A stretch of 57,268 nt of DNA, from the NCBI GenBank assembly GCA_949291575.1, contig CASEWH010000067.1, positions 1 through 57,268 of the forward strand, written 5' to 3'. The notes beneath the pieces were generated by a model. It was not told the DNA's origin. It saw only the letters and a list, made by a program, of their open reading frames with translations, and made no database searches. Position numbers and translations under genes: made by a program. How positions within the stretch are numbered: the first letter of the stretch is position 1; the number at the start of each line of letters is the position of its first letter. This document shows, piece by piece, positions 7,200-47,658 of the stretch. This DNA is from an uncultured bacterium (lineage in GTDB: Bacteria; Bacillota_I; Bacilli_A; RF39; UBA660).

Positions 7200-8969
7200 T
7201 TAATTACTTTTATACCAAATATTTTTAATATCAACGTTATTTGATAAAGGTTCAGGATCTGCTTTTTGAAATTGCATATTAATTGGAACTTTAAAAGCAC
7301 TACCAAAGGCAATAGCATTACCTGGTTTTAAACTCTTAAGTTGGTTAGCAACTTCTAGAGTAATTGATGGTACCATATCTTTAATATAAGCCAAATCTTT
7401 TGGATGCAGTGTTCTTAAAATAACAAAGTTTGAACATTGAGATATAGCAGTATCGGAAAGTTCACTAGGTCTTTGCGTAATTAATCCTAATAGAACACCA
7501 TATTTACGTCCTTCTTTAGTAATTCGATCAAAGATATTATAACCAAGTATTTCTGTATCTGTATCTTTTTGAACATATCTATGCGCTTCCTCAATAATTA
7601 TATGATATGGAACACTACCTCTAGCCTCATTTGTAACCGCTGTGTCAAAAATTAGTTTTGATATTATTTTAGTTATAACTTTTGCAAGTCTATCTTCTAT
7701 ATAACTAATATTAAAGTTTACTATTTGACACCTATTTCCGTCCATATTAGTAAATAATCTATCTAAATAAGTTTCTTTATTTATATAAGAAGTTGAATCA
7801 AAGAAAACATGATTAGGACTATTAGCAAGAGTATGTAATCTAACACTTAGGACATTAGCATAGTCATAAACTTTATCACTTTTTAATATACCTTCACTAA
7901 TAAGAGCGAAATCCATTGCGGTTTCTAAATCTTTTAGAGTATAGGCAATAAACTTCTCTGGTCTATCTTCTAAGTTAAAGTCATCCATTATAAATTGTTT
8001 TACAAAGTTAACTACTAACTCCATTTCCATTAGTTTACCAGTCTTATCTATATATAAACATTGTTTAAAAGTCCTAGTATAACCAGGTTGTACTATTTTA
8101 GCATCAAGACTTAAATCTTTGGTATTAAACTTAGTAAGTACTGCAATTACTTGATCTCTTATCTTTGTAGATTGATGTCCACTTAATAAAATATCAAGAA
8201 CCGCTCTTGCAATGATATCATTTTTATATTTAATAACATCAGGATCATCTCCTGTTAAGATATTAACAAGACTTAAAGCTTTCTCAATAATAGGTATTTG
8301 ATTAGGAGTTGTAACATCAAGAAGTAATGCTAAATCATCTACTCCAAGTAACCATAGAGGTATATTTAATATTTCACTCATAGCATTTTCAGGATTAGTT
8401 GTATAAGTTTTATAATGCATATTAGGATTTACTTTATCAATATTACCTAAAGCTCTTGTATACTCTCCATAAGCATCAAACATTATAACATGGGCACCAA
8501 CTGGACTTTTTTTAGGATCTGCAAAAACATTTTGTAAAATACGACTAACTGAGAAAGATTTACCTGCTCCAGAGTTACCTAATATTGCAAAATGATTACT
8601 GAAAAATCCATTTATATCAACATTTATTTTATAGTTTTGATAAATATTAGAAAAGCCAAAAGTAACCTCTTTATCAGTTGGTTCCATCGGTCCTAATATT
8701 AAAGCAAGTTCATCCATTGTTACTATTCTAGTAGTAGATTTAAATGATGGTTTAGCACTAATACCTGGTAAAAATCTATTATCTTTTATTTCTCCTACGA
8801 TATTTATTTTTAAAGTTGTTTTAGTACTATTAACAATCTCTCCTACTATTTTAGTTCCATTATCTTCAAAGATAACATGTAAATTCAATAGATTAGCTTG
8901 CTTAGTTATATCTATAGTCAAATCTAAAATAACATTGTTATCTACTATTTCTCTAATTGTACCTAACAC
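7200..8969 (-). CDS. HerA-like (DUF87) AAA/FtsK-type ATPase
   Basis: 589 aa. N-terminal barrel-like region, Walker A GNSGAGKS, IIIEEAHRY, GRKYGVLLGLITQRPSEL. GTG start with RBS GAAGGTG. Confidence 0.8.
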   Translation of the reverse strand: MLGTIREIVDNNVILDLTIDITKQANLLNLHVIFEDNGTKIVGEIVNSTKTTLKINIVGEIKDNRFLPGISAKPSFKSTTRIVTMDELALILGPMEPTDKEVTFGFSNIYQNYKINVDINGFFSNHFAILGNSGAGKSFSVSRILQNVFADPKKSPVGAHVIMFDAYGEYTRALGNIDKVNPNMHYKTYTTNPENAMSEILNIPLWLLGVDDLALLLDVTTPNQIPIIEKALSLVNILTGDDPDVIKYKNDIIARAVLDILLSGHQSTKIRDQVIAVLTKFNTKDLSLDAKIVQPGYTRTFKQCLYIDKTGKLMEMELVVNFVKQFIMDDFNLEDRPEKFIAYTLKDLETAMDFALISEGILKSDKVYDYANVLSVRLHTLANSPNHVFFDSTSYINKETYLDRLFTNMDGNRCQIVNFNISYIEDRLAKVITKIISKLIFDTAVTNEARGSVPYHIIIEEAHRYVQKDTDTEILGYNIFDRITKEGRKYGVLLGLITQRPSELSDTAISQCSNFVILRTLHPKDLAYIKDMVPSITLEVANQLKSLKPGNAIAFGSAFKVPINMQFQKADPEPLSNNVDIKNIWYKSN

Positions 8970-9044
8970 GTTAACACCTTCTTATTCTATAGAAATTATA
9001 CTATAAAATTCTATTCGTAACAAGTGTATTTTTAATAAGAATTT

Positions 9045-9074
9045 AGAAAAAGACACCTCGTAAAACTTGGTGTC
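9045..9074 (-). terminator. Rho-independent terminator, probably the original host terminator of the tRNA-Arg gene
   Basis: Stem GACACC/GGTGTC (9052-9057 with 9069-9074) followed by a U-run on the minus strand. Confidence 0.5.
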
Positions 9075-9154
9075 AAAATAAAAGTTATAAAAATAATTAT
9101 AGTATACCTTTTTATGTAAATATCTTTAGTATATTACTAAAAATAATAATATCT

Positions 9155-9175
9155 ACTGGCGTCCCCAGAGGGAAT
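9155..9175. repeat. att core copy (displaced 3' end of tRNA-Arg)
   Basis: ACTGGCGTCCCCAGAGGGAAT is identical to 47582-47602. Homology to the tRNA stops after GGAAT. Confidence 0.9.
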
Positions 9176-9277
9176 TGATTTTCAATGATATTTAATAATA
9201 TATTAAAAGAAAATCCTTTATTTTATAACAAATAGTAATATAAAAAAATATACAAAAGTATGTAATTATAGACTTTT

Positions 9278-9300
9278 AAGAGGTAAATAAGGGGTAAAAT
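9278..9300 (+). repeat. 23-bp direct repeat shared with the integrase 3' end; candidate integrase arm-type site
   Basis: AAGAGGTAAATAAGGGGTAAAAT is identical to 47513-47535. In the excised circle the two copies flank the att core. Confidence 0.6.
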
Positions 9301-9330
9301 ATAATAATATAATATTTTTCAAAAAAACTA

Positions 9331-9359
9331 TTGACTGACTGACCGACTTATGCTATAAT
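9331..9359 (+). promoter_or_regulatory. Sigma-A-type promoter of the accessory operon
   Basis: TTGACT, 17-nt spacer, TATAAT. The spacer contains the recurring CTGACCGACTT motif. Confidence 0.6.
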
Positions 9360-9387
9360 GAATATGTAATTTGAAAGGAAGAGAAAT

Positions 9388-9642
9388 ATGAAAATTAAAA
9401 ATTTATTAAAACTTAATATTTTAAACGAAATGGCAAGTACTTGCCTAAACAAAAGAATTGATGATGACTTTTATGATTTTTACTTTGAAAAAAATGTAGA
9501 ATGGTTAATAAAAAATAAAGATAAAATCATAAATGACTTTTATAGCCTAGATACTACATTTGAAAAAGAAAATGGTTTACTATTTCATACAAAAGATTTT
9601 AGTAAGCAAGATGTTATTGATATTTTGAAAGAAGATGAATAA
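9388..9642 (+). CDS. Hypothetical protein (first gene of the accessory operon)
   Basis: 84 aa. RBS GAAAGGAAGAG. No recognisable motif. Confidence 0.6.
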   Translation: MKIKNLLKLNILNEMASTCLNKRIDDDFYDFYFEKNVEWLIKNKDKIINDFYSLDTTFEKENGLLFHTKDFSKQDVIDILKEDE

Positions 9643-10042
9643 TATGTGGAAAAATATTGAAATTAACATACAAAATATTGAATACGATACTGGAAAAGCA
9701 ACACTAATTAAAATGCCAAATAAAAGCAATTATGCAGGATATAAATTTTGGCATCCAAGTAAACTAATTAGATATGGTTCTAATTCTTATGCAAGAAGTT
9801 TAGGATATACAGATGATTTTACTTTTAAACTAAAAAAATATGGTAAGGGTAAATATAATTCACATGATATAATTGATGAAATTGACATATCTGCAGAAGA
9901 GTTCGAAGAAGCATTTGAATGTATGGAAAGCTGTACTAGAGCTAAATCTGACGAAACATATTTACATATAACTGAGCCAGAAAAAATTGAAAAAGATGTT
10001 AAAGTAAAGGAGGAATTAAAAAATGAAAGTAACAAGAGATGA
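9635..10042 (+). CDS. Hypothetical protein
   Basis: 135 aa. Overlaps the previous stop. Contains YKFWHPSKLIR and an acidic C-terminus. Confidence 0.6.
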   Translation: MNNMWKNIEINIQNIEYDTGKATLIKMPNKSNYAGYKFWHPSKLIRYGSNSYARSLGYTDDFTFKLKKYGKGKYNSHDIIDEIDISAEEFEEAFECMESCTRAKSDETYLHITEPEKIEKDVKVKEELKNESNKR

Positions 10043-10289
10043 AATGCTAAATGCACTTAAAAAAAATAGTGATTTACATTTATTTAATGGTTTTTATAGC
10101 AATAAAGGTAACGAATATATAGATATCGTCAATGGTTACCAAATTTTACAAGGATGGGGTGCAGAACACATATCTCAAAATAATAAATATTTTTATGTTG
10201 TAAATGGAGGCTTTGCTACAGAGTACATTTATAATAAAATATTTAAGAAAGAAAATAAAAATGAACAATACTCAACTATTAGCATTTGA
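10023..10289 (+). CDS. Hypothetical protein
   Basis: 88 aa. Strong RBS AAAGGAGGAA. Overlaps both neighbours. Confidence 0.6.
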   Translation: MKVTRDEMLNALKKNSDLHLFNGFYSNKGNEYIDIVNGYQILQGWGAEHISQNNKYFYVVNGGFATEYIYNKIFKKENKNEQYSTISI

Positions 10290-11490
10290 ACAATTTTCTA
10301 AATTAAAAGTTGGAGCATTGTTTATGAAAATGGGAACTGGGAAAACGAGAGTTGCATTAGAGCTAGTGAATTACAATAAAGTAGATCTACTAATATATGT
10401 AGCCCCTTTCTCTACCCTATCTAATATTAAAGAGGAAATAAATAAATGGGGCATAAATTGTGAATGCATTTTAATTGGTTATGAAACGATTTCTTCAAGT
10501 GATTCTAAATATTTAGAACTTTTAAAAAAGATAAAAAATAAAAAATGTTTTATAATAGCAGATGAAAGCATCTTTATAAAGAACGAAGAAACAAAAAGAT
10601 TTAAAAGGCTCTGTAATATTCGTAAAGGATGTAGTTACGCATTAATTTTAAATGGTACACCACTTACTAAAAACGAATGGGACTTGTATAATCAAATGTA
10701 CTTTTTAAGTCCCTTAATAATTGATATGAGCCGAGAACAATTTTTAAATACTTTCTTTAAGAAGATAACCTATAAAAAGTATCATCAAAGAGAACATACT
10801 TTTTATAAATTTAGTAATATTAATGCTAAGCTGTTATATAAAATGATTAAACCATATATATTTGAATGCGATTTAGATTTTTTTAAAGAAGAAGTGGAAA
10901 ACTATGTATATATAGATTATGAAGATGATAATTATTATAATGAAAAAGAGAAAAGGCTAAATCACTATATAGAAACAAGAAATAGTGAATCAATTATTAA
11001 TATGCTTACATCATTAAATGTAATTGCAAGTAATTATTCTAAAAAAAACGATAAAGTTATTGAATATGTAAAAGATAAGCAAATTATTGTTTTTTGTAGT
11101 TTTATTGAAGAAATAGAATATATAAGTGAAAAATTAGATTGTTATGTAATTACTGGTAATACAAAAAATAGAGATAAAATCATAAAAGCATTTAAAAACA
11201 ATTCTAAACCGTTATTAATGACTTTTGGTGTAGGGTCATATTCTTTAAATCTACAATTTTGTAATGAAATAGTTTATACTAGTCTTACTTATGACTATTC
11301 TAAATTAGAACAAAGCAAATATAGAATCAAGCGAATAGGGCAAAATAAAGATATAAAATATACCTATTTTTTAACTAATTTAGGAATAACAAAATTAATA
11401 ATCGAAAGTATAAAAAGAAAATGTACTTTAGAAAATTTAATAAAAGAAAAAATAATGGAAGGTGGTATTGAATGGCTAAAGTCTATTTAG
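10261..11490 (+). CDS. Minimal SNF2-family helicase/ATPase
   Basis: GTGKT (motif I), IIADESIFIKN (motif II), LILNGTPLTKN (motif III), GVGSYSLNLQ...EQSKYRIKRIGQ (motifs V-VI). The start is taken at MNNTQLLAF. Confidence 0.8.
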   Translation: MNNTQLLAFEQFSKLKVGALFMKMGTGKTRVALELVNYNKVDLLIYVAPFSTLSNIKEEINKWGINCECILIGYETISSSDSKYLELLKKIKNKKCFIIADESIFIKNEETKRFKRLCNIRKGCSYALILNGTPLTKNEWDLYNQMYFLSPLIIDMSREQFLNTFFKKITYKKYHQREHTFYKFSNINAKLLYKMIKPYIFECDLDFFKEEVENYVYIDYEDDNYYNEKEKRLNHYIETRNSESIINMLTSLNVIASNYSKKNDKVIEYVKDKQIIVFCSFIEEIEYISEKLDCYVITGNTKNRDKIIKAFKNNSKPLLMTFGVGSYSLNLQFCNEIVYTSLTYDYSKLEQSKYRIKRIGQNKDIKYTYFLTNLGITKLIIESIKRKCTLENLIKEKIMEGGIEWLKSI

Positions 11491-12755
11491 AGAAAGATGT
11501 CTTAACAGCTTTTTTTGAAAGAACAGAAGAAGTTTTTAAAGAAGCAGATAATGTTATTTTTTCTGTAAGTGGTGGTAAAGACAGTGGTATAATGGTCCAA
11601 CTTGCTAATATAGTAGCGAAAAAACTAAATAAAAAATATGATGTCATGTATATTGATTTTGAGGCACAATATAAAGCTACAATAGATTACATAAATAGAT
11701 TAAAGAAATTGTCAAATGTAAGAACCTTTTATCATATAGCTTTACCAATGTACTTAAGAAATGCAGTATCTGTACTCCAACCCAAATGGATATGTTGGAA
11801 TCCCGATGATGAAGATATATGGGTACGTAAATTACCTAAGGATAGCATAAATTTATCTAATAATATCTTTCCATTTTATAATAGACCTATTGAATTTGAA
11901 GAATTTGTACCATTATTTCAAGAATGGTACCAAAAAACTCATGGGGGTTTATGCTTTGTTGGTGTTGGAATTAGAGCAGATGAAAGTATAAACCGTTTTA
12001 GAACTATAGCTTTAATGCCGAATAAAGTTGAGTACAAAAGCCATCATTGGACGACAAAAGTTGGAGAGAATATGTACTCTTTTTACCCAATGTATGATTG
12101 GCGAACAGAAGATGACTGGGGTGCAACTACTAAATTTAATCTTGACATGAATAATATTTATGAATTAATGTATAAAAATGGATTATCAATTCATGAACAA
12201 CGTCTGTGTCAACCATATGGAGATGACCAAAGAAATGGATTAGACCAATTTAAAGCACTAGAAAGTGAAACTTGGGAGAAAGTCTTAAACAGAGTTAATG
12301 GTGTTAATTTTGGTAATATCTATTGCAAAACATCTGCCTTAGGAAATATCACTTCTATGAAACCTGAGCATATGACATGGCAACAATATACAATTTATTT
12401 GTTAGAAAGTTTAGGATTATATAATAAAGATTTAGAATTGCATTATTATGGCAAGATTAAAAAGTTTATGAAATGGTATAAAGATAAAGAAGGAATTGAT
12501 TTGAAAGATATTCCTGAAGAAGCAGATAAAAAAGAAGAAAGTATGAAAAAAGTTATTTCCTGGCGAAGAATTGCAAGAGCAATTGAAAAAAATGATTTTT
12601 ATATGAAACGATTATCATTTTCAGAAAATAAGAGTGATTTTGAAAAGTTAAAAAAAATGATAAGTAAATGGGATAATTTATTAAATGAAACCACAGAAAC
12701 TACTGATAAATCTTTAAGAAAAGCTAAGGAGGTATTAATAAATGAAAGAAATTAA
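11472..12755 (+). CDS. PP-loop ATPase of the PAPS-reductase family (IbrA/DndC-like)
   Basis: 427 aa. VIFSVSGGKDSGIMV PP-loop, GVGIRADES, and a long C-terminal extension as in DUF3440-type proteins. RBS GGAAGGTGG. Confidence 0.75.
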   Translation: MAKVYLEKDVLTAFFERTEEVFKEADNVIFSVSGGKDSGIMVQLANIVAKKLNKKYDVMYIDFEAQYKATIDYINRLKKLSNVRTFYHIALPMYLRNAVSVLQPKWICWNPDDEDIWVRKLPKDSINLSNNIFPFYNRPIEFEEFVPLFQEWYQKTHGGLCFVGVGIRADESINRFRTIALMPNKVEYKSHHWTTKVGENMYSFYPMYDWRTEDDWGATTKFNLDMNNIYELMYKNGLSIHEQRLCQPYGDDQRNGLDQFKALESETWEKVLNRVNGVNFGNIYCKTSALGNITSMKPEHMTWQQYTIYLLESLGLYNKDLELHYYGKIKKFMKWYKDKEGIDLKDIPEEADKKEESMKKVISWRRIARAIEKNDFYMKRLSFSENKSDFEKLKKMISKWDNLLNETTETTDKSLRKAKEVLINERN

Positions 12756-13275
12756 AATGAAAGCTTTAGAAGCTAAATTAGTACCAATAGAAAAACTAAG
12801 TGCTAACAATTGGAATCCTAATAAGGTTGCTAAACCAGAAATGGATTTATTACAACGTTCAATTGAAGATAACGGTTTTTGTTTTCCTATTGCTACTATC
12901 TATGATAAAGAAAAAGATGAGTATATAATAATAGATGGATATCATAGGTATTTAGTTTCTAAAGACAGATTACATTTAAAAGAAATTCCAGTAGTAGTAT
13001 TGGATTATGATGTTAAAATGCAAATGAGTGCGACTATCCAATTTAATAGAGCAAGAGGTACTCATCAGATACCTGATATGAGTAAAATTGTAATTAAATT
13101 ATTAAATGAAGGATGGGGAGATAAGCAAATATGTGAACATTTAGGTATGGAACTTGACGAAGTTATAAGACTTAAACAAGTTAGTGGATTAAAAGAAGCT
13201 TTTGCTAATCATACTTTTAGCAAGAGTTGGGAAGAATTTGAAAGAAATTTATTGGAGGAAAATTATGAGAACTAA
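12742..13275 (+). CDS. ParB/sulfiredoxin-fold protein (IbrB/DndB-like)
   Basis: 177 aa. NPNKV...IIIDGYHRYLVS ParB N-terminal-domain motif. RBS AAGGAGG. Overlaps the PP-loop gene by 14 nt. Confidence 0.75.
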   Translation: MKEIKMKALEAKLVPIEKLSANNWNPNKVAKPEMDLLQRSIEDNGFCFPIATIYDKEKDEYIIIDGYHRYLVSKDRLHLKEIPVVVLDYDVKMQMSATIQFNRARGTHQIPDMSKIVIKLLNEGWGDKQICEHLGMELDEVIRLKQVSGLKEAFANHTFSKSWEEFERNLLEENYEN

Positions 13276-13699
13276 AGAATGGTTAAAAGAAAAAAGAATA
13301 AAATATTGTTACACGCAAAGGCAACTTGCTAAAGAAATTGGCTTATCGCCTTTTACAATTGAGCAAATAGAACAAGGAAAAAGGCTAGGCTCTGTTGAGA
13401 CATGGGAAAAAATAGAAAACTTTTTTAAGAATGAAGATGAGATTGATATTATAGTGTCTTATGAAAGCGATGATTTAATAGTAGAACTAAAAGAAGACAT
13501 TGAAGAATTTGGAGAAGATAATCCATGTATATTAGTATATAAAATAGTAGGAAATCACATTATTTTTACAAATTATGACTTTATCACAGAAGAAGACCCA
13601 TTTAATCCTGATAAAGAACTAGAAGAAGATGAATATTACATAGAAACCACTTTTAAATATGCACTTGAGGTATTTGAAAGACAAAATAAAATATTATAA
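13265..13699 (+). CDS. XRE-type HTH protein with unknown acidic C-terminal domain
   Basis: YTQRQLAKEIGLSPFTIEQIEQGKR helix-turn-helix. RBS TTGGAGGAAA. Overlaps the ParB-like gene. Confidence 0.7.
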   Translation: MRTKEWLKEKRIKYCYTQRQLAKEIGLSPFTIEQIEQGKRLGSVETWEKIENFFKNEDEIDIIVSYESDDLIVELKEDIEEFGEDNPCILVYKIVGNHIIFTNYDFITEEDPFNPDKELEEDEYYIETTFKYALEVFERQNKIL

Positions 13700-13711
13700 A
13701 ATAAAAAAACA

Positions 13712-13738
13712 GGTAGAGCCAATTAAGACTCTACCTTT
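13712..13738. terminator. Bidirectional terminator between the accessory operon and the endolysin
   Basis: GGTAGAG/CTCTACC stem flanked by an A-run and a T-run, between convergent genes. Confidence 0.65.
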
Positions 13739-14630
13739 AATTATTAGATACTTCGTATAAAGGTCCACAATCACATCTGAATTGAACTCCATCAGCTTCA
13801 AGAATTGCTACACCATTTTTTAAATATTTAGTTGGTAGCTCAACACCTTTTACAGTAAAAGTATTATCACATTTCCAGTAATCACCAACATTTAATACTG
13901 CATTATAATTAGCATTACTACCATCAGAATTACATTTAGCAAGTGGACCACTAGGAATGTAATCATTTACTCCACATGGAGAACCATAGCAGGTATCGTA
14001 GCATCCAATAGCACCATTAGGGTATTTGCTGTTTGGAAGTATTATTTCATTTACTCTAAACACTCCATTGAATTTTACCTTTGACCCTACTTTAAGTATT
14101 TGATCACCTGCAGTTGATATAGAACTTCCATTATTTAATTTCTCTTGAACTTTAGCAACAAATGTATTCCAGTCATAAGGATTACCTCGTCTTATATCGT
14201 AAGGACAGTCTTTACCAGTCCAAGCATTATGTTGAAATAAGTAACCTATAACATTTGTAACACCATATCTTCTTAATATCTCTGCACATAGTTCTACTGC
14301 ATTGTCAGTAGCTTTTCTAATATCTCCATCAGAATTATCACAGATTTCAATAGAGATAGTTTTCATGTTACCATCGCCACGTCCATCACCTTGACACCAA
14401 GCCACCTCGTTTTCTGGTACACATCTAACAGCTCTATCTTGATCTACTACGTAGTTCCAAGAGGTGGTTACATTCTTCCAAGAGCCTCTTAATAGATTTG
14501 CATGAGCTATTGCATTAGCACCTTTATTGTGATTTGACGTATTATGAATAGTAATACCTCTAAATCCAGTTCTTGATATACCTGGTCTACAACTATAGCC
14601 AAGTGGTGCTAGCATTTCAATTATTTCCAT
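13737..14630 (-). CDS. Endolysin: N-acetylmuramoyl-L-alanine amidase (PGRP/Amidase_2-type) plus C-terminal binding repeats
   Basis: ITIHNTSN...AWCQGDG...SIEICDN catalytic pattern. Two Cys-rich C-terminal repeats. Last gene of the late operon. Confidence 0.85.
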   Translation of the reverse strand: MEIIEMLAPLGYSCRPGISRTGFRGITIHNTSNHNKGANAIAHANLLRGSWKNVTTSWNYVVDQDRAVRCVPENEVAWCQGDGRGDGNMKTISIEICDNSDGDIRKATDNAVELCAEILRRYGVTNVIGYLFQHNAWTGKDCPYDIRRGNPYDWNTFVAKVQEKLNNGSSISTAGDQILKVGSKVKFNGVFRVNEIILPNSKYPNGAIGCYDTCYGSPCGVNDYIPSGPLAKCNSDGSNANYNAVLNVGDYWKCDNTFTVKGVELPTKYLKNGVAILEADGVQFRCDCGPLYEVSNN

Positions 14631-14731
14631 TATTCATCACTCCCTTTACCATCTTCAACTATTCCAGTTTCTACTTTATCTACATTAGCCTCTTCTTTTG
14701 AAAGAGTTTCTTCTTCTTTTATTGTTGCCAT
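14630..14731 (-). CDS. Small acidic ORF (33 aa) translationally coupled to the endolysin
   Basis: MATIKEEETLSKEEANVDKVETGIVEDGKGSDE. RBS GAGGAGAAA. Its stop overlaps the endolysin ATG (TAATG). Below the cut-off of the ORF track. Confidence 0.4.
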   Translation of the reverse strand: MATIKEEETLSKEEANVDKVETGIVEDGKGSDE

Positions 14732-14745
14732 ATTTTATTTCTCCT

Positions 14746-14994
14746 CTACTTATTTTTAATATTAATCAAATCTGCAATTCCACCTGCACCCATAGTCGCT
14801 ACTAAACATAATACTAATGCCTGTAGTAAGTTAGGCTCTATGCCTGTGAAAAAGCAAATTAATGCACTTACAATACCAACTATAACATTCTGAATAGGAA
14901 TATACTTGTTAGGTACTGTGTCTATAAATATTTTAGTAATAGCACCTAAGATATAGGCTACTATTGCTATGATTACTACATAAGTTATTTCCAT
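14746..14994 (-). CDS. Holin
   Basis: 82 aa with three hydrophobic segments and a charged C-terminus (NIKNK). Lies just upstream of the endolysin. Confidence 0.8.
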   Translation of the reverse strand: MEITYVVIIAIVAYILGAITKIFIDTVPNKYIPIQNVIVGIVSALICFFTGIEPNLLQALVLCLVATMGAGGIADLINIKNK

Positions 14995-33261: not shown

Positions 33262-33705
33262 TTAATTATTTTCTTTAGTTTCTTCTTCAACTGATTTATT
33301 TTCATTAATATCTTTTATTATTCTTTGTATTGTTTTTTCGGAACAGTCAAATTTAGCAGCAATATCAGCATGAGATAGACCATATAAATATTTTGCCTTA
33401 AAAACTTTCTTTTCCATCTCGTCCATTTCCTCTATACTTCTGTCTACTTCATTAAAATAATCATTGATCTTATCTAATTCTTTTTTTATTAAAGTTCTTT
33501 CTTTATCTAATTCCTCTATTTCTGCAAAAGTTGCTGTAAACCTATCAGGATGTTTTTCATTTTGGACTTTAACTTCATCAAAGGTAAATCCATGTAATCC
33601 TAATTTTTCATCTATTTTTAATTGTATTCTTTCGTTTAGAATCTTATAAGTCTTTTCATATAATGTACGATCATTTTTTAGTTTTCTTATAACACTATAT
33701 TTCAT
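33262..33705 (-). CDS. Sigma-70 region-4-like late transcriptional activator (RinA/ArpU-type role)
   Basis: 147 aa. C-terminal EKKVFKAKYLYGLSHADIAAKFDCSEKTIQRIIKD HTH. Located just upstream of the packaging genes. Confidence 0.7.
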   Translation of the reverse strand: MKYSVIRKLKNDRTLYEKTYKILNERIQLKIDEKLGLHGFTFDEVKVQNEKHPDRFTATFAEIEELDKERTLIKKELDKINDYFNEVDRSIEEMDEMEKKVFKAKYLYGLSHADIAAKFDCSEKTIQRIIKDINENKSVEEETKENN

Positions 33706-34844
33706 TTTCCCTCCTTAATCTTTTCTACTTTTACATATCCTGTATCTAGTAACTCTCTAGCCCTTTCGTTGTCATATAAATAATAAATATTATTTTTTCT
33801 TATTATAGCATTTCCAATATCATTATGCTCGAATATATCATCAATTATGAGTTCTGGTCTTTTATCAATGTAATCTTTTAAGGCCCTAATTTTATATTTT
33901 ATTTTAGGGACAGATACTCTCTTATTGAATAATTTATCCCAGTCTTTTATAGTACCTTTTTCTTTATACACAAAGTTTTTTGGAATATTGTTTACTATTT
34001 TATTTATATCTAAATTAGATAAATCCATATCTAATAAATAGCCATTAACACCATCTTCAATCGATTCATAACTACTTGGATAATTTGTGGAAATAACTGG
34101 CGTCCCATATTGTAAGCACTCATTAACAAAATAACAATAACCTTCTGTATCTGATAATTGCACCCCATAATCTGCTTCTGCTATATAATCAAATATATCG
34201 TGTGAAGGTTTTAAATAAACGATTTCTTCCATATCAAAAGGTTTCTGTTGATATAATTTTAAATCGGTAAAAATAATCCATCTAAATTTTATATTATTTG
34301 CTTTTAAAACTTGAGCTAATTTTAGCATTCTACTGTACCCTTTTTCCTTTGAAACTCTAGTTGCTGATATTAATTTTAAAATATGATGAGTATCTTGTTT
34401 ATCATCTAATATATTATAAATGGTTGTTACTTTTTCATTTGGATATAGATTTTTAAAAACAGATGTTATATGTTTACCGACTGCAACATGTTCTGTTGTT
34501 TTATTCCATTTTTCATAGACAAAACCTGTATCTTTAGCTTTTATATAATCAGCATGAATCATCTGTATATATCTTCCAGTTTTAGCAATAACAGTTTCAG
34601 GATATCCTCCCCAAGCACTTGCCAAAAGACAAATGTCACATATATATTTCTTATTTTCTTTATATTTCTCTACTGAAATATTCAATTTCTTTAGTCTGTT
34701 TATAGTATCTAAATGTCCTTCTTTATATAAAAATAAAATATTGTATTTATCTCTCATTTTCTTACAAAAGTTATAATCAAATGTATCAATGCCTCCAATC
34801 TGTAATGGATTAGTATGATATAGAATTATATTCTTTTTTCTCAT
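33702..34844 (-). CDS. GT-B (group 1) glycosyltransferase with extra C-terminal domain
   Basis: LSDTEGYCYFVNECLQYGTPVISTNYPSSYESIEDGVNGYLL (E-x7-E region). Start moved to MRKKNIILY after GGAGG. Confidence 0.7.
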   Translation of the reverse strand: MRKKNIILYHTNPLQIGGIDTFDYNFCKKMRDKYNILFLYKEGHLDTINRLKKLNISVEKYKENKKYICDICLLASAWGGYPETVIAKTGRYIQMIHADYIKAKDTGFVYEKWNKTTEHVAVGKHITSVFKNLYPNEKVTTIYNILDDKQDTHHILKLISATRVSKEKGYSRMLKLAQVLKANNIKFRWIIFTDLKLYQQKPFDMEEIVYLKPSHDIFDYIAEADYGVQLSDTEGYCYFVNECLQYGTPVISTNYPSSYESIEDGVNGYLLDMDLSNLDINKIVNNIPKNFVYKEKGTIKDWDKLFNKRVSVPKIKYKIRALKDYIDKRPELIIDDIFEHNDIGNAIIRKNNIYYLYDNERARELLDTGYVKVEKIKEGK

Positions 34845-34920
34845 GGTACCTCCAACAAATGTATCTTTCATCAATATTTTTCTTTTCTTTTAACTAATAA
34901 TTATATTTCTTTACACATAT

Positions 34921-35157
34921 TTACCACTTTTTAAAACCATCATATTTTTTTAGATATTCTTCTAATTCGTCAAGAGTTGTTTTTGAACTATCTAATATTG
35001 GCCTATTATAATTTGATAAATAATCTTCTACATTTGGATTATACAAAAATAATATCCATCTATAATCATCATCTAAATTTGTTTGAATGCATAAATGAAA
35101 CATATTTTTGTTTAATAAATTTTGTATTTTAAATAATCGTTCTATTTCTTTACTCAT
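34921..35157 (-). CDS. Hypothetical early protein
   Basis: 78 aa. Conserved junction AGGAGAATAGATAATATG at the start. Confidence 0.55.
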   Translation of the reverse strand: MSKEIERLFKIQNLLNKNMFHLCIQTNLDDDYRWILFLYNPNVEDYLSNYNRPILDSSKTTLDELEEYLKKYDGFKKW

Positions 35158-35162
35158 ATTAT

Positions 35163-35291
35163 CTATTCTCCTTTATTCAAGATTTCCTTTACAAACTCAT
35201 CAGTTGTTTCTTTTATTATTTTTTCAGTTTCTTCTTTTCCTAAATGTTTTTCACATATTTTAATTAGTTTTTCTAATAATATATCTTTCAT
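35163..35291 (-). CDS. Hypothetical 42-aa protein
   Basis: MKDILLEKLIKICEKHLGKEETEKIIKETTDEFVKEILNKGE. Same junction motif at its start and stop. Below the cut-off of the ORF track. Confidence 0.45.
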   Translation of the reverse strand: MKDILLEKLIKICEKHLGKEETEKIIKETTDEFVKEILNKGE

Positions 35292-35296
35292 ATTAT

Positions 35297-35917
35297 CTAT
35301 TCTCCTCTATCAAAATGCTCTCTTAACTTGCCATTTTTCATCCTTACATATTTAGTAACATTGTTTTTATAATTTATAACAAACCCCTCCACACTTCTGT
35401 TCACTTTATTACAATATTTTTCATAAATACTATCTAAATGTTCTTTAGTTGGTAAAATATTTAACTCTATTACTTCTGGTACTATCCCTAAACATTTCGG
35501 TAATTCTTGACTTTGAAATGGATATATAAACAAATTGTGGTCATAAATTAAATTATATAGATTAAAGTCATCATCAATATTTGCCTTTGCAAACATATAC
35601 CACCTTTTATCAAATTCATTAACGGCATATTTTAAACATCCCATTCCTAACCATTCTCCACATATAACACTACCTTCGTGTAAATCATTTAAAACTTCTT
35701 TATTATCATTTAACCATTGATATAATCCTTTGTATAGTTTATCTTTTACTTCTTCTAATTCACTAATTTTAAATATATTGTTTCTTTGAGCAAAATATAC
35801 TTCTCCATCCTTTTTAAAGAATACTAAATTACTTCCATCTAATTTTTCAGTAATATATACTTTATCTCCTGCACTACTAACTCTTTTAGTTTTAGGATAT
35901 ATTTCTTTTTTTATCAT
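35297..35917 (-). CDS. ATP-dependent RNA/DNA ligase-type nucleotidyltransferase (RNA-ligase-like, domain-only)
   Basis: 206 aa. Motif I ITEKLDGSN, motif III ICGEWLG, motif IV VEGFVINY, motif V RMKNGK. Confidence 0.7.
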   Translation of the reverse strand: MIKKEIYPKTKRVSSAGDKVYITEKLDGSNLVFFKKDGEVYFAQRNNIFKISELEEVKDKLYKGLYQWLNDNKEVLNDLHEGSVICGEWLGMGCLKYAVNEFDKRWYMFAKANIDDDFNLYNLIYDHNLFIYPFQSQELPKCLGIVPEVIELNILPTKEHLDSIYEKYCNKVNRSVEGFVINYKNNVTKYVRMKNGKLREHFDRGE

Positions 35918-39047: not shown

Positions 39048-39875
39048 CTAAAACTTAATATTTCTTATTTTTAACTCTTTTTCTTTGTTAGTTAACTTTG
39101 TATATATCCTAGTCGTTTCTAATGAATTATGACCAAGTATATCTGCTAAACCCGCTATATCATTTGGATAAGTCTCTAAATAACATCTAGCGAAATAATG
39201 TCTAAAAGCATGAGGGTGTACTGCATCTTTACTTATTCTTGCTCTTCCTGCCAATTTCTTTAATCTTCTCCAAATAGTAGAATCAGCATAAGCTTTACCA
39301 GTCTTAGGATTAAATATAATTAGTCCCTCTTTAATTTTTCTATCTCTACAATATTTTCTTATTTCCCTTAATAAATCTAACTTTACAGGTATTTCTCTTA
39401 CTTTACCTTTCTTTTTTATTTTCATAGTCTTATCTAAATCTTCAATTTTAAAAAAAGCTAACTCAGAAATACGAATACCTGTTTCTGCTAATATTCTTAA
39501 AATAATGTAATTATCATATTCTTCATACTTTTTAGTTGTTCTTAATAACCTATGATAATCAGATTTGCTTAAAGAGTATTCTAAAGAGAATTTCTTTTGT
39601 TGCTTTATGACTTTTACACATAAATCTTTTTTTCCAATAAAATTTAAAAACTTATTAATTACAACTAAATAGTTATTAGTTGTATTAGGCAAATATTCAT
39701 CTACTTGATCTAATTTCTCTTTAAACTCTATAACTGTTCTTTTAGTAAGCTCTTTATCTTTAGAAAATTCTATAAAAGCTTTTATGTTAGTTTTATACTT
39801 TTCAATTGTTTTTTCTGCTTTCTCATCTTCTTTTAAAAATAATTCAAACTCTTCTAACTTCGCTTCTAAATTCAT
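39048..39875 (-). CDS. XerC/XerD-size tyrosine recombinase (second recombinase of the prophage)
   Basis: 275 aa. ETGIRISEL, HPHAFRHYFA, LGHNSLETTRIYT catalytic R...HxxR...Y pattern. No arm-binding N-domain. Confidence 0.85.
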   Translation of the reverse strand: MNLEAKLEEFELFLKEDEKAEKTIEKYKTNIKAFIEFSKDKELTKRTVIEFKEKLDQVDEYLPNTTNNYLVVINKFLNFIGKKDLCVKVIKQQKKFSLEYSLSKSDYHRLLRTTKKYEEYDNYIILRILAETGIRISELAFFKIEDLDKTMKIKKKGKVREIPVKLDLLREIRKYCRDRKIKEGLIIFNPKTGKAYADSTIWRRLKKLAGRARISKDAVHPHAFRHYFARCYLETYPNDIAGLADILGHNSLETTRIYTKLTNKEKELKIRNIKF

Positions 39876-43467: not shown

Positions 43468-43489
43468 TTCTTAGTCTTGACCGACTTTT
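43468..43489 (+). repeat. 22-bp element TTCTTAGTCTTGACCGACTTTT (left copy of a perfect inverted repeat)
   Basis: Exact reverse complement of 46273-46294. The core TGACCGACTT also occurs at 44531-44540 and 9340-9349. Confidence 0.85.
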
Positions 43490-43532: not shown

Positions 43533-43557
43533 AAATTAATTGAAAGGAGGTGTAAGT

Positions 43558-44241
43558 TTGAAACATTATTTAACCTCTAGAGACCATTCTAATTCACATA
43601 TTGTTTGCGATTATCCAAATATCTGCCCTATATGTAATAACAAAATTTCCCCAATAAATGAGTTTGAAAAATGTAATAAAGATATTAATTTAGTATCTAT
43701 ACTCTTTACCTGTCCAGCTTGTGGGAAAGGATTTATTACTCATTACGAATATGACGAAAACAAAGGTGTAAATAGAGGAACATATAGTTATAAAAATTTA
43801 ACTCTTTTACAATCATTTCCAGTTAAACCTAAAGAAACAATATTTGAAGAGTGCATTCGTAATTTATCTCCTACATTTTGTAACATATATAACCAGGCTG
43901 TTGCATCAGAAACATATGGATTAGATCAACTATCTGGAATTGGTTATCGAAAATCCATTGAATTTCTAATTAAAGATTTTTGCATTTATAAGCACCCTAA
44001 TGATGAAGAAAAAATTAAATCTACATTATTAGGTCAAGTCATCAATACTTATATAGATGAAACATCAAAAATTCGAACATTAGCTAAAGCCTCTGTATGG
44101 CTCGGAAATGATGAAACACATTATATTAAAAAATTTGATGACAAAGATATAAATGATTTAAAACGATTTATTAGAGCAACTGTAAGTTATATAACCTATG
44201 AACTTGTATCTGATGAAGCTGAAGAATTAGTTAATTCATAA
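43558..44241 (+). CDS. Zn-ribbon + DUF4145 (HEPN-like) domain protein
   Basis: TTG start 7 nt after GGAGG. CPICNN...CPACGKGF. C-terminal GYRKSIEFLIKDF...WLGNDETHY as in DUF4145. Confidence 0.65.
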   Translation: MKHYLTSRDHSNSHIVCDYPNICPICNNKISPINEFEKCNKDINLVSILFTCPACGKGFITHYEYDENKGVNRGTYSYKNLTLLQSFPVKPKETIFEECIRNLSPTFCNIYNQAVASETYGLDQLSGIGYRKSIEFLIKDFCIYKHPNDEEKIKSTLLGQVINTYIDETSKIRTLAKASVWLGNDETHYIKKFDDKDINDLKRFIRATVSYITYELVSDEAEELVNS

Positions 44242-44527: not shown

Positions 44528-44545
44528 CCTTGACCGACTTTTTTA
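44528..44545 (+). promoter_or_regulatory. Third copy of the TTGACCGACTTTT motif (possible cro-antisense promoter -35 or regulator site)
   Basis: CCTTGACCGACTTTTTT lies just downstream of the cro-like stop, oriented toward cI, next to operator copy 44553-44569. Confidence 0.35.
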
Positions 44546-46272: not shown

Positions 46273-46294
46273 AAAAGTCGGTCAAGACTAAGAA
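46273..46294 (-). repeat. 22-bp element, right (inverted) copy
   Basis: AAAAGTCGGTCAAGACTAAGAA is the reverse complement of 43468-43489. Confidence 0.85.
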
Positions 46295-47525: not shown

Positions 47526-47535
47526 GGGGTAAAAT
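47513..47535 (+). repeat. 23-bp direct repeat (partner of 9278-9300)
   Basis: AAGAGGTAAATAAGGGGTAAAAT spans the int stop codon. Confidence 0.6.
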
Positions 47536-47581: not shown

Positions 47582-47602
47582 CTGGCGTCCCCAGAGGGAA
47601 TC
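47582..47602. repeat. att core copy within the intact tRNA 3' end
   Basis: Identical to 9155-9175. Confidence 0.9.
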
Positions 47603-47658
47603 GAACCTTCATCTAAGCCTTAGGAGGGCCTTGTTCTATCCGTTGAACTATGGGGACA
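47584..47658 (-). tRNA. tRNA-Arg(CCU): tRNA-Arg (anticodon CCU)
   Basis: 75 nt. Acceptor GTCCCCA/TGGGGAC, D-stem GTTC/GAAC, anticodon loop CUCCUAA, T-loop TTCGATT, encoded CCA. One A-C mismatch in the T-stem. Confidence 0.85.

What the first reader, a model, noticed from the sequence alone, without database searches (positions are those of the whole stretch)
9331..13738. Self-promoted accessory operon: minimal SNF2 helicase + PP-loop (DndC/IbrA-like) + ParB/Srx-fold (DndB/IbrB-like) + HTH + three unknown genes
Seven co-directional, overlapping plus-strand genes sit between the endolysin and the attL end, antiparallel to the whole late operon. They have their own near-consensus promoter (TTGACT, 17 nt, TATAAT) and a terminator shared with the endolysin. 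This is the classic slot for genes expressed from the lysogen. Seen in sequence: (a) SNF2 motifs GTGKT, DESIFIKN, LNGTPL and RIKRIGQ in a helicase of only about 410 aa; (b) an SGGKDSG PP-loop in a 427-aa PAPS-reductase-like protein; (c) a DGYHR ParB/Srx motif in a 177-aa protein that overlaps it; (d) an XRE-HTH protein overlapping that. A PP-loop enzyme paired with a ParB-fold protein is the logic of DndC/DndB (DNA phosphorothioation) and of the poorly understood prophage IbrA/IbrB pair. I do not recognise the combination with a dedicated helicase, a regulator and three unknown small proteins as any named modification or defence system. The promoter spacer also carries the CTGACCGACTT motif found in the immunity region, which suggests phage-controlled expression. 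This is the best candidate here for an undescribed DNA-modification, anti-restriction or prophage-encoded defence module.
Basis: partly seen in the sequence, partly recalled or inferred. Interest (0 to 1): 0.75.

Follow-up and report, generated by a model that had tools for sequence, protein, structure and literature searches.

The report
Phage IbrA/IbrB module with helicase
The seven-gene operon is real, but its conserved core is a four-gene phage cassette (small partner protein, minimal SNF2 motor, IbrA-type ATP enzyme, IbrB-type ParB protein) that recurs in many temperate and strictly lytic phages and whose function has never been worked out.

Summary
Seven overlapping plus-strand genes (9388-13699) lie at the far end of a 38-kb prophage, with a near-consensus promoter and a hairpin terminator shared with the endolysin gene. 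Domain calls are confirmed: SNF2 helicase (409 aa), PAPS_reduct+DUF3440, ParB_N and HTH_3.

The interpretation needs correction.
- The PP-loop/ParB pair is the already named but mechanistically unknown IbrA/IbrB (E. coli YbdN/YbdM) family. It has thousands of homologues and occurs in 142 isolated phage genomes.
- Only four genes are conserved: orf2, SNF2, IbrA and IbrB. Of 175 related loci, 50 carry the SNF2 gene, and 40 of those also have orf2 or an alternative partner ('c6').
- The module is two co-inherited cassettes, orf2+SNF2 (r=0.99) and IbrA+IbrB (r=0.89), that re-assort yet stay adjacent.
- It occurs in lytic Streptococcus thermophilus phages beside anti-CRISPR AcrIIA5, and beside orphan DNA methylases elsewhere. 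That argues against a lysogen-only defence system.
- It is not Dnd-like. It hits no DndC, SspD or BrxP model, has no Fe-S cysteine cluster, and has no desulfurase or nuclease partner.

My best guess (about 0.4) is a DNA-directed, ATP-dependent modification or remodelling module used for counter-defence or gene control. No paper I could search characterises it.

The parts
9156..9175 (.). Prophage attachment-site repeat: a displaced copy of the tRNA-Arg 3' end that marks the prophage boundary just upstream of the operon
   Evidence: The 20-nt CTGGCGTCCCCAGAGGGAAT is identical to 47582-47601, the 3' end of tRNA-Arg(CCT) at 47583-47657 on the minus strand. The integrase gene at 46389-47525 lies next to the intact tRNA.
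9331..9359 (+). Operon promoter: TTGACT, 17 nt, TATAAT with an extended -10 TG
   Evidence: It scores 11/12 and is the best promoter-like site in 8900-14800. A homologous promoter (TTGACA-17-TATAAT) with a different spacer precedes the same module in L094.
9339..9349 (+). CTGACCGACTT motif inside the promoter spacer; candidate regulator-binding site
   Evidence: One exact copy plus three one-mismatch copies in the lysogeny region, against 0.14 expected by chance. The orientation differs from the other copies. The motif is absent from all 98 loci held at the time of that search.
9388..9642 (+). orf1, 84 aa, variable accessory gene of unknown function
   Evidence: No Pfam, PHROG, NCBIfam or PADLOC hit. 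Its only homologue is the C-terminal part of a 147-aa protein in the same slot of L093-L096 (63% identity).
9635..10042 (+). orf2, 135 aa, conserved partner of the SNF2 helicase (phrog_27058); all-beta domain with a disordered acidic tail
   Evidence: phrog_27058 at 1.6e-39. 237 close homologues and 472 clusters at 50% identity. It lies directly upstream of SNF2 in 20 loci. Its identity to the window protein tracks that of SNF2 (r=0.99). AF2 model: pLDDT 70.6, 8 strands, no PDB match. The domain is fused to the c6-type N-terminus in P0271, P0323 and P0352.
10023..10289 (+). orf3, 88 aa, variable accessory gene of unknown function
   Evidence: No family hits. There is a 34%-identical 87-aa protein in the same slot of L093-L096 only.
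10261..11490 (+). Minimal SNF2-family ATPase/translocase, 409 aa (the ORF is open from 10204)
   Evidence: SNF2-rel_dom and Helicase_C above cut-off. phrog_62 at 1.5e-72. Motifs GTGKT, DESI, LNGTP and RIKRIGQ are present. It gives only partial, sub-threshold matches to DrmD, BrxH, DpdE and ZorD. Homologues are 409-411 aa.
11472..12755 (+). IbrA/YbdN-type PP-loop ATP alpha-hydrolase (PAPS_reduct domain plus DUF3440), 427 aa
   Evidence: Pfam. phrog_2302 at 1.7e-76. More than 6,500 homologues, 60-90% identical among the top 120. The PP-loop SGGKDS, the GIRxDES..R motif and the PxYDW motif are at least 95% conserved. Foldseek finds PAPS reductase, CysD, FMN adenylyltransferase and NAD synthetase folds for residues ~1-235 only. 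No solved structure is found by sequence.
12742..13275 (+). IbrB/YbdM-type ParB/Srx-fold protein with a C-terminal helical (HTH-like) region, 177 aa
   Evidence: ParB_N above cut-off. phrog_2159 at 3.3e-60. Adjacent to IbrA in 166 of 175 loci. The NPN, DGxHR and NRARGxH motifs are at least 95% conserved. Its closest solved relatives by sequence are the ParB/Srx-fold serine kinases SerK and SbnI, then Noc and ParB.
13265..13699 (+). XRE-type HTH protein, 144 aa, specific to this locus; candidate autoregulator of the operon
   Evidence: HTH_3 at 33.5 bits. Hits PHROG repressor and regulator families. Not found next to the module in any other locus.
13711..13736 (.). Hairpin terminator shared with the convergent endolysin (amidase) gene at 13737-14630
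   Evidence: 10-bp stem with 5 GC pairs; a T-run on the minus strand; sequence. Amidase_2 domain.

Best explanation
The operon is an IbrA/IbrB-type phage accessory module extended by a helicase cassette.

Shown:
- Four genes form a recurrent unit: orf2 (a small beta-domain partner), a minimal SNF2 ATPase, IbrA (a PAPS-reductase/CysD-type PP-loop ATP alpha-hydrolase plus the helical DUF3440) and IbrB (a ParB/Srx nucleotide-binding domain plus a helical DNA-binding-like tail).
- The unit is built from two separately inherited cassettes, orf2+SNF2 and IbrA+IbrB, that are repeatedly brought together in the same order.
- It is carried by temperate and lytic phages in the accessory-gene hotspot after the lysis genes.

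Inferred mechanism:
- IbrB binds DNA and a nucleotide and recruits or activates IbrA.
- IbrA uses ATP to adenylylate, and so activate, a group on DNA or on a DNA-bound substrate. The chemistry does not involve sulfur.
- The SNF2 motor, targeted by orf2, translocates on duplex DNA to give the enzymes access or processivity.
- The phage benefits through protection of its DNA from host nucleases or other defences, or through altered expression of silenced DNA.

In this prophage the module has a strong promoter of its own. The locus-specific HTH protein probably autoregulates it, in the way anti-CRISPR-associated (Aca) regulators control anti-CRISPR operons.
For: - Identity of the parts.
- Pair conservation: IbrA is adjacent to IbrB in 166 of 175 loci.
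- Four-gene architecture: orf2-SNF2-IbrA-IbrB in 20 loci, c6-SNF2-IbrA-IbrB in 17, and SNF2-IbrA-IbrB in 9.
- orf2 and c6 are alternative forms of one partner family. Some proteins join the c6 N-terminus to the orf2 domain.
- Cassette structure: identity to the window proteins correlates at r=0.99 for orf2/SNF2 and r=0.89 for IbrA/IbrB, but at r=-0.14 for SNF2/IbrA.
- Gene overlaps suggest translational coupling, here and in L093.
- The catalytic PP-loop and PAPS-reductase-family motifs are conserved.
- Lytic carriers: S. thermophilus D4276 and the CHPC phages, the S. equinus phages (no integrase annotated near the module), Lactobacillus AQ113 and the Flavobacterium FCL-2 group.
- Anti-defence neighbours: AcrIIA5 lies directly upstream of orf2 in D4276, CHPC877 and CHPC1062, and in an unrelated Nosocomiicoccus contig. 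Orphan DNA methyltransferases lie directly downstream of IbrB in L099-L104.
- No nuclease or other effector gene is conserved with the module.
- The prophage has its own DnaB/DnaD replication genes, so the SNF2 protein is not the replicative helicase.
- Literature: IbrA/IbrB are reported only as activators of prophage eib genes. E. coli ybdNM is a repressed pair of the same family.
Against: - No biochemical activity, substrate or phenotype is known for any member beyond eib activation. The DNA-modification step is pure inference.
- Many IbrA/IbrB pairs stand alone among housekeeping genes in Clostridia genomes and in E. coli K-12. A phage counter-defence role does not predict that.
- IbrB's nearest solved relatives are small-molecule kinases (SerK, SbnI), not DNA clamps.
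- The DUF3440 region was modelled poorly (pLDDT below 50 for residues 236-296), so DNA binding by IbrA is not shown.
- The AcrIIA5 link may only reflect a shared insertion hotspot. Most phages with AcrIIA5, such as Sfi21, O1205 and TP-778L, do not appear among the hits for the module genes (compare).
- The loci compared are not phylogenetically independent.
Confidence: 0.4

Rival explanations
1. Transcription control module. IbrB acts as a ParB/KorB-like DNA-binding regulator, IbrA as its nucleotide-dependent co-factor and SNF2 as a RapA-like remodeller of RNA polymerase or nucleoid proteins. Together they switch on silenced phage or host genes (host takeover, or lysogenic conversion).
For: [quoted passage not shown]
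- YbdM is predicted to be a transcription factor, and ybdNM is H-NS- and YbdO-controlled.
- SbnI, a ParB/Srx-fold relative of IbrB, is both an enzyme and a transcription regulator (NCBIfam name).
- The module sits next to cro and antirepressor genes in lytic phages.
Against: - A plain regulator would not need a fully conserved PP-loop catalytic site.
- A plain regulator would not need a dedicated SNF2 motor with its own partner protein.
- eib activation could be an indirect result of DNA modification or prophage induction.
- No conserved binding site was found. The promoter motif is locus-specific.
Confidence: 0.25
2. Prophage-encoded defence or superinfection-exclusion system. The module recognises and inactivates incoming foreign DNA, or marks self DNA for an unidentified effector.
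For: - It lies at the prophage end with its own strong promoter, antiparallel to the late genes.
- SNF2 helicases and PP-loop/ParB proteins are components of DISARM, BREX, Dpd, Dnd and Ssp; there are weak partial PADLOC hits to DrmD, BrxH and DpdE.
- Related prophages keep the same position next to attP.
Against: - The module is present in lytic phages.
- No nuclease or other effector is conserved with it.
- No PADLOC system or candidate model matches IbrA or IbrB.
- All NCBIfam defence equivalogs score far below cut-off, for example DrmD at 48 bits against a cut-off of 950.
- Its neighbours are anti-defence genes and orphan methylases, not defence islands.
Confidence: 0.15
3. Nucleotide or small-molecule enzyme pair. 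IbrA acts as a CysD- or FMN-adenylyltransferase-like enzyme and IbrB as a SerK- or Srx-like kinase. Together they make or destroy a nucleotide-linked metabolite or signalling molecule, for example to interfere with nucleotide-based immune signalling. The helicase cassette would be a separate function that merely shares the hotspot.
For: - The best structural matches of IbrA are CysD, PAPS reductase and FMN adenylyltransferase.
- The best sequence matches of IbrB are the serine kinases SerK and SbnI, which share the DG[HY]HR motif.
- The pair occurs without a helicase in 115 of 175 loci.
- The SNF2 and IbrA cassettes do not co-vary.
- There is an IbrA-GNAT fusion in L076.
Against: - When an SNF2 gene is present it is almost always immediately upstream and overlapping IbrA, across very divergent cassettes. 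That argues for a shared, DNA-linked function.
- IbrB keeps a helical C-terminal region typical of DNA-binding ParB relatives.
Confidence: 0.12
4. Dnd/Ssp-like DNA phosphorothioation: IbrA acts as DndC or SspD, and IbrB as DndB.
For: It shares the PAPS_reduct PP-loop domain, and its ParB/Srx partner has a DGxHR-type motif.
Against: - No hit to DndC, DndB, SspD or BrxP models at E<=0.01 in NCBIfam or PADLOC.
- No cysteine cluster for an Fe-S centre. The single widely conserved Cys246 is lost in the Streptococcus phage clade.
- No cysteine desulfurase, DndD/E or SspB/C gene lies in or near the module.
Confidence: 0.04

Closest known systems
IbrA/IbrB of E. coli ECOR-9 and their K-12 paralogues YbdN/YbdM
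   Same: - Same two-protein architecture: PAPS_reduct+DUF3440 next to a ParB_N protein.
- Same gene order.
- Frequent prophage location.
- GenBank phage records name homologues of the window proteins IbrA and IbrB.
   Different: - The window module adds a dedicated SNF2 ATPase and its partner orf2 upstream, plus three locus-specific small genes.
- No eib-type target genes are evident.
- The mechanism is unknown for both.
Helicase-PAPS reductase-ParB clusters of isolated phages (S. thermophilus D4276, CHPC877 and CHPC1062; S. equinus phages; Lactobacillus AQ113; C. scindens phiCs5676-1)
   Same: - Same order: partner, SNF2, IbrA, IbrB.
- Same position after the lysis genes.
- Overlapping ORFs.
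- Identities to the window proteins of 29-55% (orf2, SNF2) and 32-53% (IbrA, ParB).
   Different: - Those phages are lytic, or have the integrase on the other side.
- phiCs5676-1 has the c6-type partner instead of orf2.
- None has the terminal HTH gene.
- The records annotate these genes only by domain.
Dnd (DndB/DndC) and Ssp (SspD) DNA phosphorothioation systems; BrxP of BREX type 4
   Same: A PAPS-reductase-family PP-loop enzyme is paired with a ParB/Srx-fold protein (DndB), and ATP-dependent chemistry on DNA is presumed.
   Different: - No model-level similarity.
- No Fe-S cysteines.
- No sulfur-donor, SMC-like, nickase or restriction partner.
- The BREX type-4 PAPS reductase carries DUF4007 and extra domains (PMC12839542), not DUF3440.
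Dpd 7-deazaguanine DNA modification system (DpdA/DpdB, with the SNF2 protein DpdE)
   Same: The logic is similar: a base- or backbone-modifying enzyme is helped by a ParB-like ATPase (DpdB), with an SNF2-family helicase in the same locus (PMC12839542).
   Different: - No TGT or DpdA homologue.
- The SNF2 protein matches DpdE only weakly and partially (29 bits against a cut-off of 500).
- It is a four-gene cassette, not an 11-gene island.
Anti-CRISPR operons with an Aca regulator
   Same: A strong constitutive-type promoter drives small accessory genes, with an HTH gene at the end of the operon. The module is adjacent to AcrIIA5 in other phages.
   Different: No tested anti-CRISPR gene is present here. 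The HTH protein has no detected Aca family match. Autoregulation is inferred only.

Membership tests
IbrA/IbrB (YbdN/YbdM) pair | One protein combines a PAPS_reduct PP-loop domain with DUF3440 | tested here: met
   PF01507 at 33.5 bits (cut-off 22.5) and PF11922 at 92.9 bits (cut-off 25). [quoted passage not shown]
IbrA/IbrB (YbdN/YbdM) pair | An adjacent, co-directional ParB/Srx-fold protein | tested here: met
   ParB_N at 29.9 bits (cut-off 26.3). The two genes overlap by 14 nt. The pair is adjacent in 166 of 175 loci.
IbrA/IbrB (YbdN/YbdM) pair | Sequence homology to proteins named IbrA and IbrB | tested here: met
   tblastn gives E values of 2e-82 to 9e-65 against S. thermophilus CHPC phage genes annotated IbrA and IbrB. 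The E. coli ECOR-9 IbrA sequence itself was not compared.
IbrA/IbrB (YbdN/YbdM) pair | Activates expression of prophage (eib) genes | not testable with these tools
   The phenotype is reported only in the literature.
SNF2 family ATPase | SNF2-related N-lobe plus Helicase_C lobe with intact Walker A, DExx and motif VI | tested here: met
   Both Pfam domains score above cut-off. GTGKT, DESI and RIKRIGQ are present.
Dnd phosphorothioation (DndC/DndB) | Match to the DndC and DndB family models | tested here: not met
   Neither is listed at E<=0.01 in NCBIfam or PADLOC.
Dnd phosphorothioation (DndC/DndB) | Conserved cysteines for a [4Fe-4S] cluster in the PP-loop protein (feature recalled from the Dnd literature) | tested here: not met
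   Only Cys108, Cys246 and Cys285 are frequent, and there is no CxxC cluster. D4276 lacks Cys108 and Cys246.
Dnd phosphorothioation (DndC/DndB) | Partner genes: cysteine desulfurase (DndA), DndD and DndE | tested here: not met
   None is among the seven genes or among the recurrent neighbours.
BREX type 4, DISARM, Dpd, Zorya (SNF2-containing defence systems) | Full-length match to the system's SNF2 component, plus the other core genes | tested here: not met
   Only partial C-terminal helicase matches were found. Examples: DrmD 48 bits against a cut-off of 950, DpdE 29 against 500, ZorD 19 against 1500. No PglZ, BrxA/B/C, DrmA/B, DpdA or ZorA/B is present.
Canonical ParB CTPase partition proteins | parB_part family model; a ParA partner and parS sites | tested here: not met
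   TIGR00180 scores 25.7 bits against a cut-off of 58.45. There is no ParA in the prophage ORF set that was scanned. parS sites were not searched for.

The most novel reading that the evidence does not exclude
The four-gene unit (orf2 or c6 partner, minimal SNF2 motor, IbrA, IbrB) is a widespread, unnamed phage system. It would perform a new, sulfur-independent, adenylylation-based modification of DNA, or of DNA-bound targets, to evade host immunity. That would explain the 20-year-old IbrAB 'co-activator' phenotype as a side effect.
Probability: 0.3. Interest if true: 0.8.

Novelty: new variant of a known kind. Interest (0 to 1): 0.6.

Why it matters
IbrA/IbrB-type pairs are very common. The search found more than 6,500 homologues, and they occur in 142 isolated phage genomes and in E. 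coli K-12 as ybdNM. Yet no mechanism is known, and annotators label them 'PAPS reductase', 'partition protein' or 'virulence regulator'.

This work gives a concrete hypothesis in a tractable system. The pair repeatedly recruits a dedicated SNF2 motor and partner protein. It sits in lytic dairy phages beside a validated anti-CRISPR gene. It lacks the hallmarks of Dnd chemistry. Phage D4276 and S. thermophilus are easy to grow and to engineer.

If the module modifies DNA or blocks a defence, that would add a new enzymatic class to phage counter-defence. It would also correct many genome annotations.

Tried and rejected
- PADLOC and NCBIfam scans of all seven proteins found no system-level or equivalog match.
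- A PDB sequence search for IbrA returned nothing.
- Foldseek on the IbrA model gave only generic PP-loop folds, and the DUF3440 part was modelled too poorly to use.
- Foldseek on the orf2 model found no PDB match, and only uncharacterised phage proteins in BFVD.
- hhalign of the orf2 family against the c6 family found no direct similarity. The link came from fusion proteins instead.
- Ten literature searches found no functional study of IbrA/IbrB, DUF3440, or a PAPS-reductase/ParB/SNF2 module in phages. Several were swamped by unrelated words such as 'Ibrahim' and 'iBRB'.
- I tested whether the promoter-spacer motif is a conserved operator. It is absent from all related loci. The related prophage L094 has a different spacer, unrelated to its own immunity-region palindromes. 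This is unresolved.
- Inverted repeats around the promoter are AT-rich and weak.
- I tested whether the AcrIIA5 link is general. Only two independent contexts were found, so it counts as hotspot sharing, not strict linkage.
- Rfam found nothing in the operon.
- I rejected a replicative-helicase role for the SNF2 protein, because the prophage has its own DnaB and DnaD genes.
- I rejected a partition role for IbrB, because the element is integrated and I found no ParA.

Full report
**1. What is in the sequence**

The region 9331-13738 holds seven plus-strand ORFs:
- orf1, 9388-9642
- orf2, 9635-10042
- orf3, 10023-10289
- a helicase ORF, 10204-11490
- a PP-loop protein, 11472-12755
- a ParB-like protein, 12742-13275
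- an HTH protein, 13265-13699 (ATG preceded by AGGAGG)

Each gene overlaps the next by 8-29 nt. GC skew is positive only across 9-14 kb of an otherwise negative-skew window. The block therefore runs against the surrounding genes.

Pfam places the four larger proteins above the curated cut-offs: SNF2-rel_dom plus Helicase_C; PAPS_reduct plus DUF3440; ParB_N; and HTH_3.

The promoter TTGACT-17-TATAAT with an extended -10 TG lies at 9331-9359. It scores 11 of 12 and is the best promoter-like site in 8900-14800. A 10-bp hairpin at 13711-13736 separates the HTH stop codon from the stop codon of the convergent Amidase_2 endolysin gene.

The helicase most likely starts at the internal ATG at 10261. 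That gives 409 aa, the length of its homologues.

**2. Where it sits**

The only tRNA is tRNA-Arg(CCT), at 47583-47657 on the minus strand. A tyrosine integrase gene (46389-47525) lies beside it. The 20 nt at the tRNA 3' end (47582-47601) are repeated at 9156-9175. The prophage therefore spans about 9156-47601 (38.4 kb), and the operon is the first transcription unit inside the end far from the integrase.

To the left are host genes: SepF, DivIVA, a small RelA/SpoT synthetase and a U32 peptidase. The host is related to the uncultured gut Bacilli 'Candidatus Onthousia'.

The prophage has its own DnaB and DnaD-type replication genes. The SNF2 protein is therefore not the replicative helicase.

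**3. The PP-loop/ParB pair is IbrA/IbrB**

The PP-loop protein has more than 6,500 homologues at E<=1e-5. All of the top 120 carry PAPS_reduct plus DUF3440, and the top hits are 60-90% identical.

A tblastn search of isolated phages found it in 142 records. Hosts include Flavobacterium, Streptococcus, Mycobacterium, Microbacterium, Lactobacillus, Clostridium, Fusobacterium and Faecalibacterium. Several of these records annotate the pair as 'IbrA' and 'IbrB' or as 'co-activator of prophage gene expression'.

E. coli K-12 YbdN ('PAPS reductase/DUF3440') and YbdM ('ParB-like nuclease domain') are the same pair. They are repressed by YbdO.

The papers I could search treat IbrA/IbrB only as regulators of immunoglobulin-binding (eib) prophage genes, or as proteins of unknown function. 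None gives a mechanism. From memory, the original description is Sandt et al. 2002; I could not read that paper here.

**4. The conserved unit has four genes**

I collected 175 loci from viral contigs, genomes and GenBank phages and scored them with family profiles.

| Architecture | Loci |
|---|---|
| IbrA-IbrB | 69 |
| IbrB-IbrA | 46 |
| orf2-SNF2-IbrA-IbrB | 20 |
| c6-SNF2-IbrA-IbrB | 17 |
| SNF2-IbrA-IbrB | 9 |
| other rare forms | 14 |

The pair is thus the core. An SNF2 gene joins it in 50 of the 175 loci. In 46 of those 50 the SNF2 gene lies immediately upstream of IbrA. In 40 of them the locus also has one of two partner proteins: orf2 (phrog_27058) or a 330-400-aa protein I call c6.

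orf2 and c6 show no direct profile similarity. However, an exhaustive profile search found 472 orf2-family clusters. Some 320-366-aa members join the c6-type N-terminus to a C-terminal orf2 domain. That N-terminus has a Zn-ribbon-like CGH...CPxC motif, then 'LPELTGSEKQVAWA..IR', then 'WWIDxR'. orf2 and c6 are therefore two forms of one helicase-partner family.

orf1 and orf3 have homologues only in one closely related prophage (L093-L096). The HTH gene accompanies the module nowhere else.

**5. Two cassettes**

Across loci with all the genes, identity to the window proteins correlates as follows:
- orf2 with SNF2: r=0.99 (n=20)
- IbrA with IbrB: r=0.89 (n=42)
- SNF2 with IbrA: r=-0.14

For example, L093 is 73%/72% identical for orf2/SNF2 but 34%/49% for IbrA/IbrB. 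L099 is 29%/34% and 70%/66%.

Diverged helicase cassettes and IbrAB cassettes have therefore been recombined repeatedly, yet they end up adjacent, in the same order and overlapping. I read this as a functional link through a common substrate, not through an obligate SNF2-IbrA complex. The loci are not independent samples, so the correlations are descriptive.

**6. Carriers and neighbours**

The same four genes lie after the lysis genes in several isolated phages:
- Lytic S. thermophilus phage D4276, directly downstream of the validated anti-CRISPR gene AcrIIA5 and upstream of cro and antirepressor genes.
- The S. equinus phages, which have no integrase annotated near the module.
- Lactobacillus phage AQ113.
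- Temperate C. scindens phage phiCs5676-1, between the endolysin and integrase genes, with a c6-type partner.

Prophage L093-L096 reproduces the window layout. The order is att site, orf1-like, orf2, orf3-like, SNF2, IbrA, IbrB, then convergent tail genes. Circularised contigs of the same phage place the integrase gene just upstream.

An AcrIIA5 homologue also lies directly upstream of orf2 in a Nosocomiicoccus contig. However, most AcrIIA5-bearing phages do not appear among the hits for the module genes (compare). The association is best described as a shared accessory-gene hotspot.

In the oral-type phage group L099-L104, an orphan DNA methyltransferase follows IbrB and precedes the recombinase gene.

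Among 128 flanking proteins the recurrent families are integrases, lysins, DNA methylases, HNH and antirepressor proteins. No nuclease or other effector recurs with the module.

Many stand-alone pairs lie among housekeeping genes in Clostridia genomes.

**7. What the proteins look like**

IbrA:
- Residues ~1-235 are a canonical PAPS-reductase/CysD-type adenine-nucleotide alpha-hydrolase. The PP-loop SGGKDS, GIRxDES..R and PxYDW motifs are at least 95% conserved.
- The AlphaFold model is confident there. It matches CysD, PAPS reductases, FMN adenylyltransferase/FAD synthase, NAD synthetase, TilS and TtuA.
- DUF3440 is helical, rich in conserved Arg and Lys, poorly modelled, and without a structural match.
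- There is no cysteine cluster. Cys246 is 96% conserved but absent from the Streptococcus phage clade.
- One homologue carries a C-terminal GNAT domain.

IbrB:
- It has conserved NPN, DGxHR and NRARGxH motifs plus a helical tail.
- Its best solved relatives by sequence are the ParB/Srx-fold serine kinases SerK and SbnI, ahead of Noc and ParB.

orf2:
- It is an eight-stranded beta domain with a disordered acidic tail and no PDB match.

SNF2:
- It has all the ATPase motifs.
- It gives only partial, far sub-threshold matches to the defence helicases DrmD, BrxH, DpdE and ZorD.

**8. Interpretation**

The identity of the locus is secure. It is an IbrA/IbrB-type phage accessory module with a helicase cassette.

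The Dnd analogy fails its tests. There is no DndC, DndB, SspD or BrxP model hit. There are no Fe-S cysteines. There is no sulfur-donor or restriction partner.

A lysogen-only defence role fits poorly with the lytic carriers and the lack of an effector.

I favour (about 0.4) a DNA-directed, ATP-dependent activation or modification function:
- IbrB targets DNA and a nucleotide.
- IbrA adenylylates a substrate.
- The SNF2-orf2 cassette provides translocation or access.
- The phage uses the module for counter-defence or to alter expression of DNA.

The rivals are:
- a transcription-control module, the only phenotype on record (0.25);
- a prophage defence or exclusion system (0.15);
- a small-molecule or nucleotide enzyme pair (0.12);
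- Dnd-like thiolation (0.04).

All steps after 'conserved ATP-using enzymes linked to DNA-binding and DNA-translocating partners' are inference.

**9. Regulation here**

The promoter is conserved in the related prophage L094 (TTGACA-17-TATAAT), but the spacer differs.

The window's spacer motif recurs three times, with one mismatch, in the lysogeny region. There it has the opposite orientation relative to the downstream genes. It is found in no other locus. L094's spacer is unrelated to that phage's own operator palindromes.

Phage-specific control is therefore plausible but not shown.

The terminal HTH gene behind a strong promoter resembles anti-CRISPR operons with an Aca autoregulator. This is analogy only.

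**10. Verdict**

The feature is real and conserved. It is not 'undescribed' at the level of the IbrAB pair or of GenBank annotation. The four-gene, two-cassette architecture and its anti-defence-type neighbourhood do not appear in any paper I could search, and the function remains open.

- Novelty: new variant of a known kind.
- Interest: 0.6.

Noticed in passing
window 9278-9300 and 47513-47535: A 23-nt direct repeat, AAGAGGTAAATAAGGGGTAAAAT, lies inside both prophage ends. In the circular phage it would flank the attP core on both sides. These may be integrase arm-binding sites.
   Followed up: no
window 43477-43487 (+), 44530-44540 (+), 46275-46285 (-): Three copies of TTGACCGACTT lie in intergenic spots of the lysogeny region. 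Each is 20-40 nt upstream of a start codon on the opposite reading of the motif. Together with the operon copy they make 4 against 0.14 expected by chance. The binding factor is unknown.
   Followed up: partly
window 7200-8969 (-): A 589-aa DUF87/HerA-type ATPase lies just outside the prophage. It matches a PADLOC HerA model very strongly (1.2e-116). It has no Sir2 or DUF4297 partner; the next gene is SepF. It is either a lone HerA or a remnant of a defence pair.
   Followed up: partly
window 33262-35917 (-): The prophage early/middle region encodes a sigma-70 region-4 protein (33262-33705), a group-1 glycosyltransferase (33702-34874) and an RNA ligase (35297-35917). This is unusual cargo and could relate to modification or repair functions.
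   Followed up: no
window 39048-39875 (-): A second tyrosine recombinase (XerC/D-like, 275 aa) lies inside the prophage, in addition to the integrase at 46389-47525.
   Followed up: no
window 43540-44241 (+) and 45611-46231 (+): Two lysogeny-region proteins have no family match. One is 233 aa and cysteine-rich (Zn-ribbon-like). The other is 206 aa with an N-terminal hydrophobic segment, lies between the CI-like repressor and integrase genes, and is a candidate superinfection-exclusion protein.
   Followed up: no
L076 8001-9710: In Paratissierella segnis the IbrA homologue carries a C-terminal GNAT acetyltransferase domain (Acetyltransf_1, 22.7 bits against a cut-off of 20.7). This possible clue to the chemistry suggests an amine-bearing product.
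   Followed up: no
P0271, P0323, P0352 (protein ids); L069, L072 and L076 c6 genes: The c6-type N-terminal module has a Zn-ribbon-like CGH...CPxC motif, then 'LPELTGSEKQVAWA..IR', then 'WWIDxR'. It has no Pfam family and occurs with two different C-terminal domains.
   Followed up: partly
L099-L104, about 8600-9900: Orphan DNA methyltransferases (N6_N4_Mtase or N6_Mtase) lie directly downstream of IbrB and upstream of the integrase or serine recombinase gene in a group of oral-type phage contigs.
   Followed up: partly
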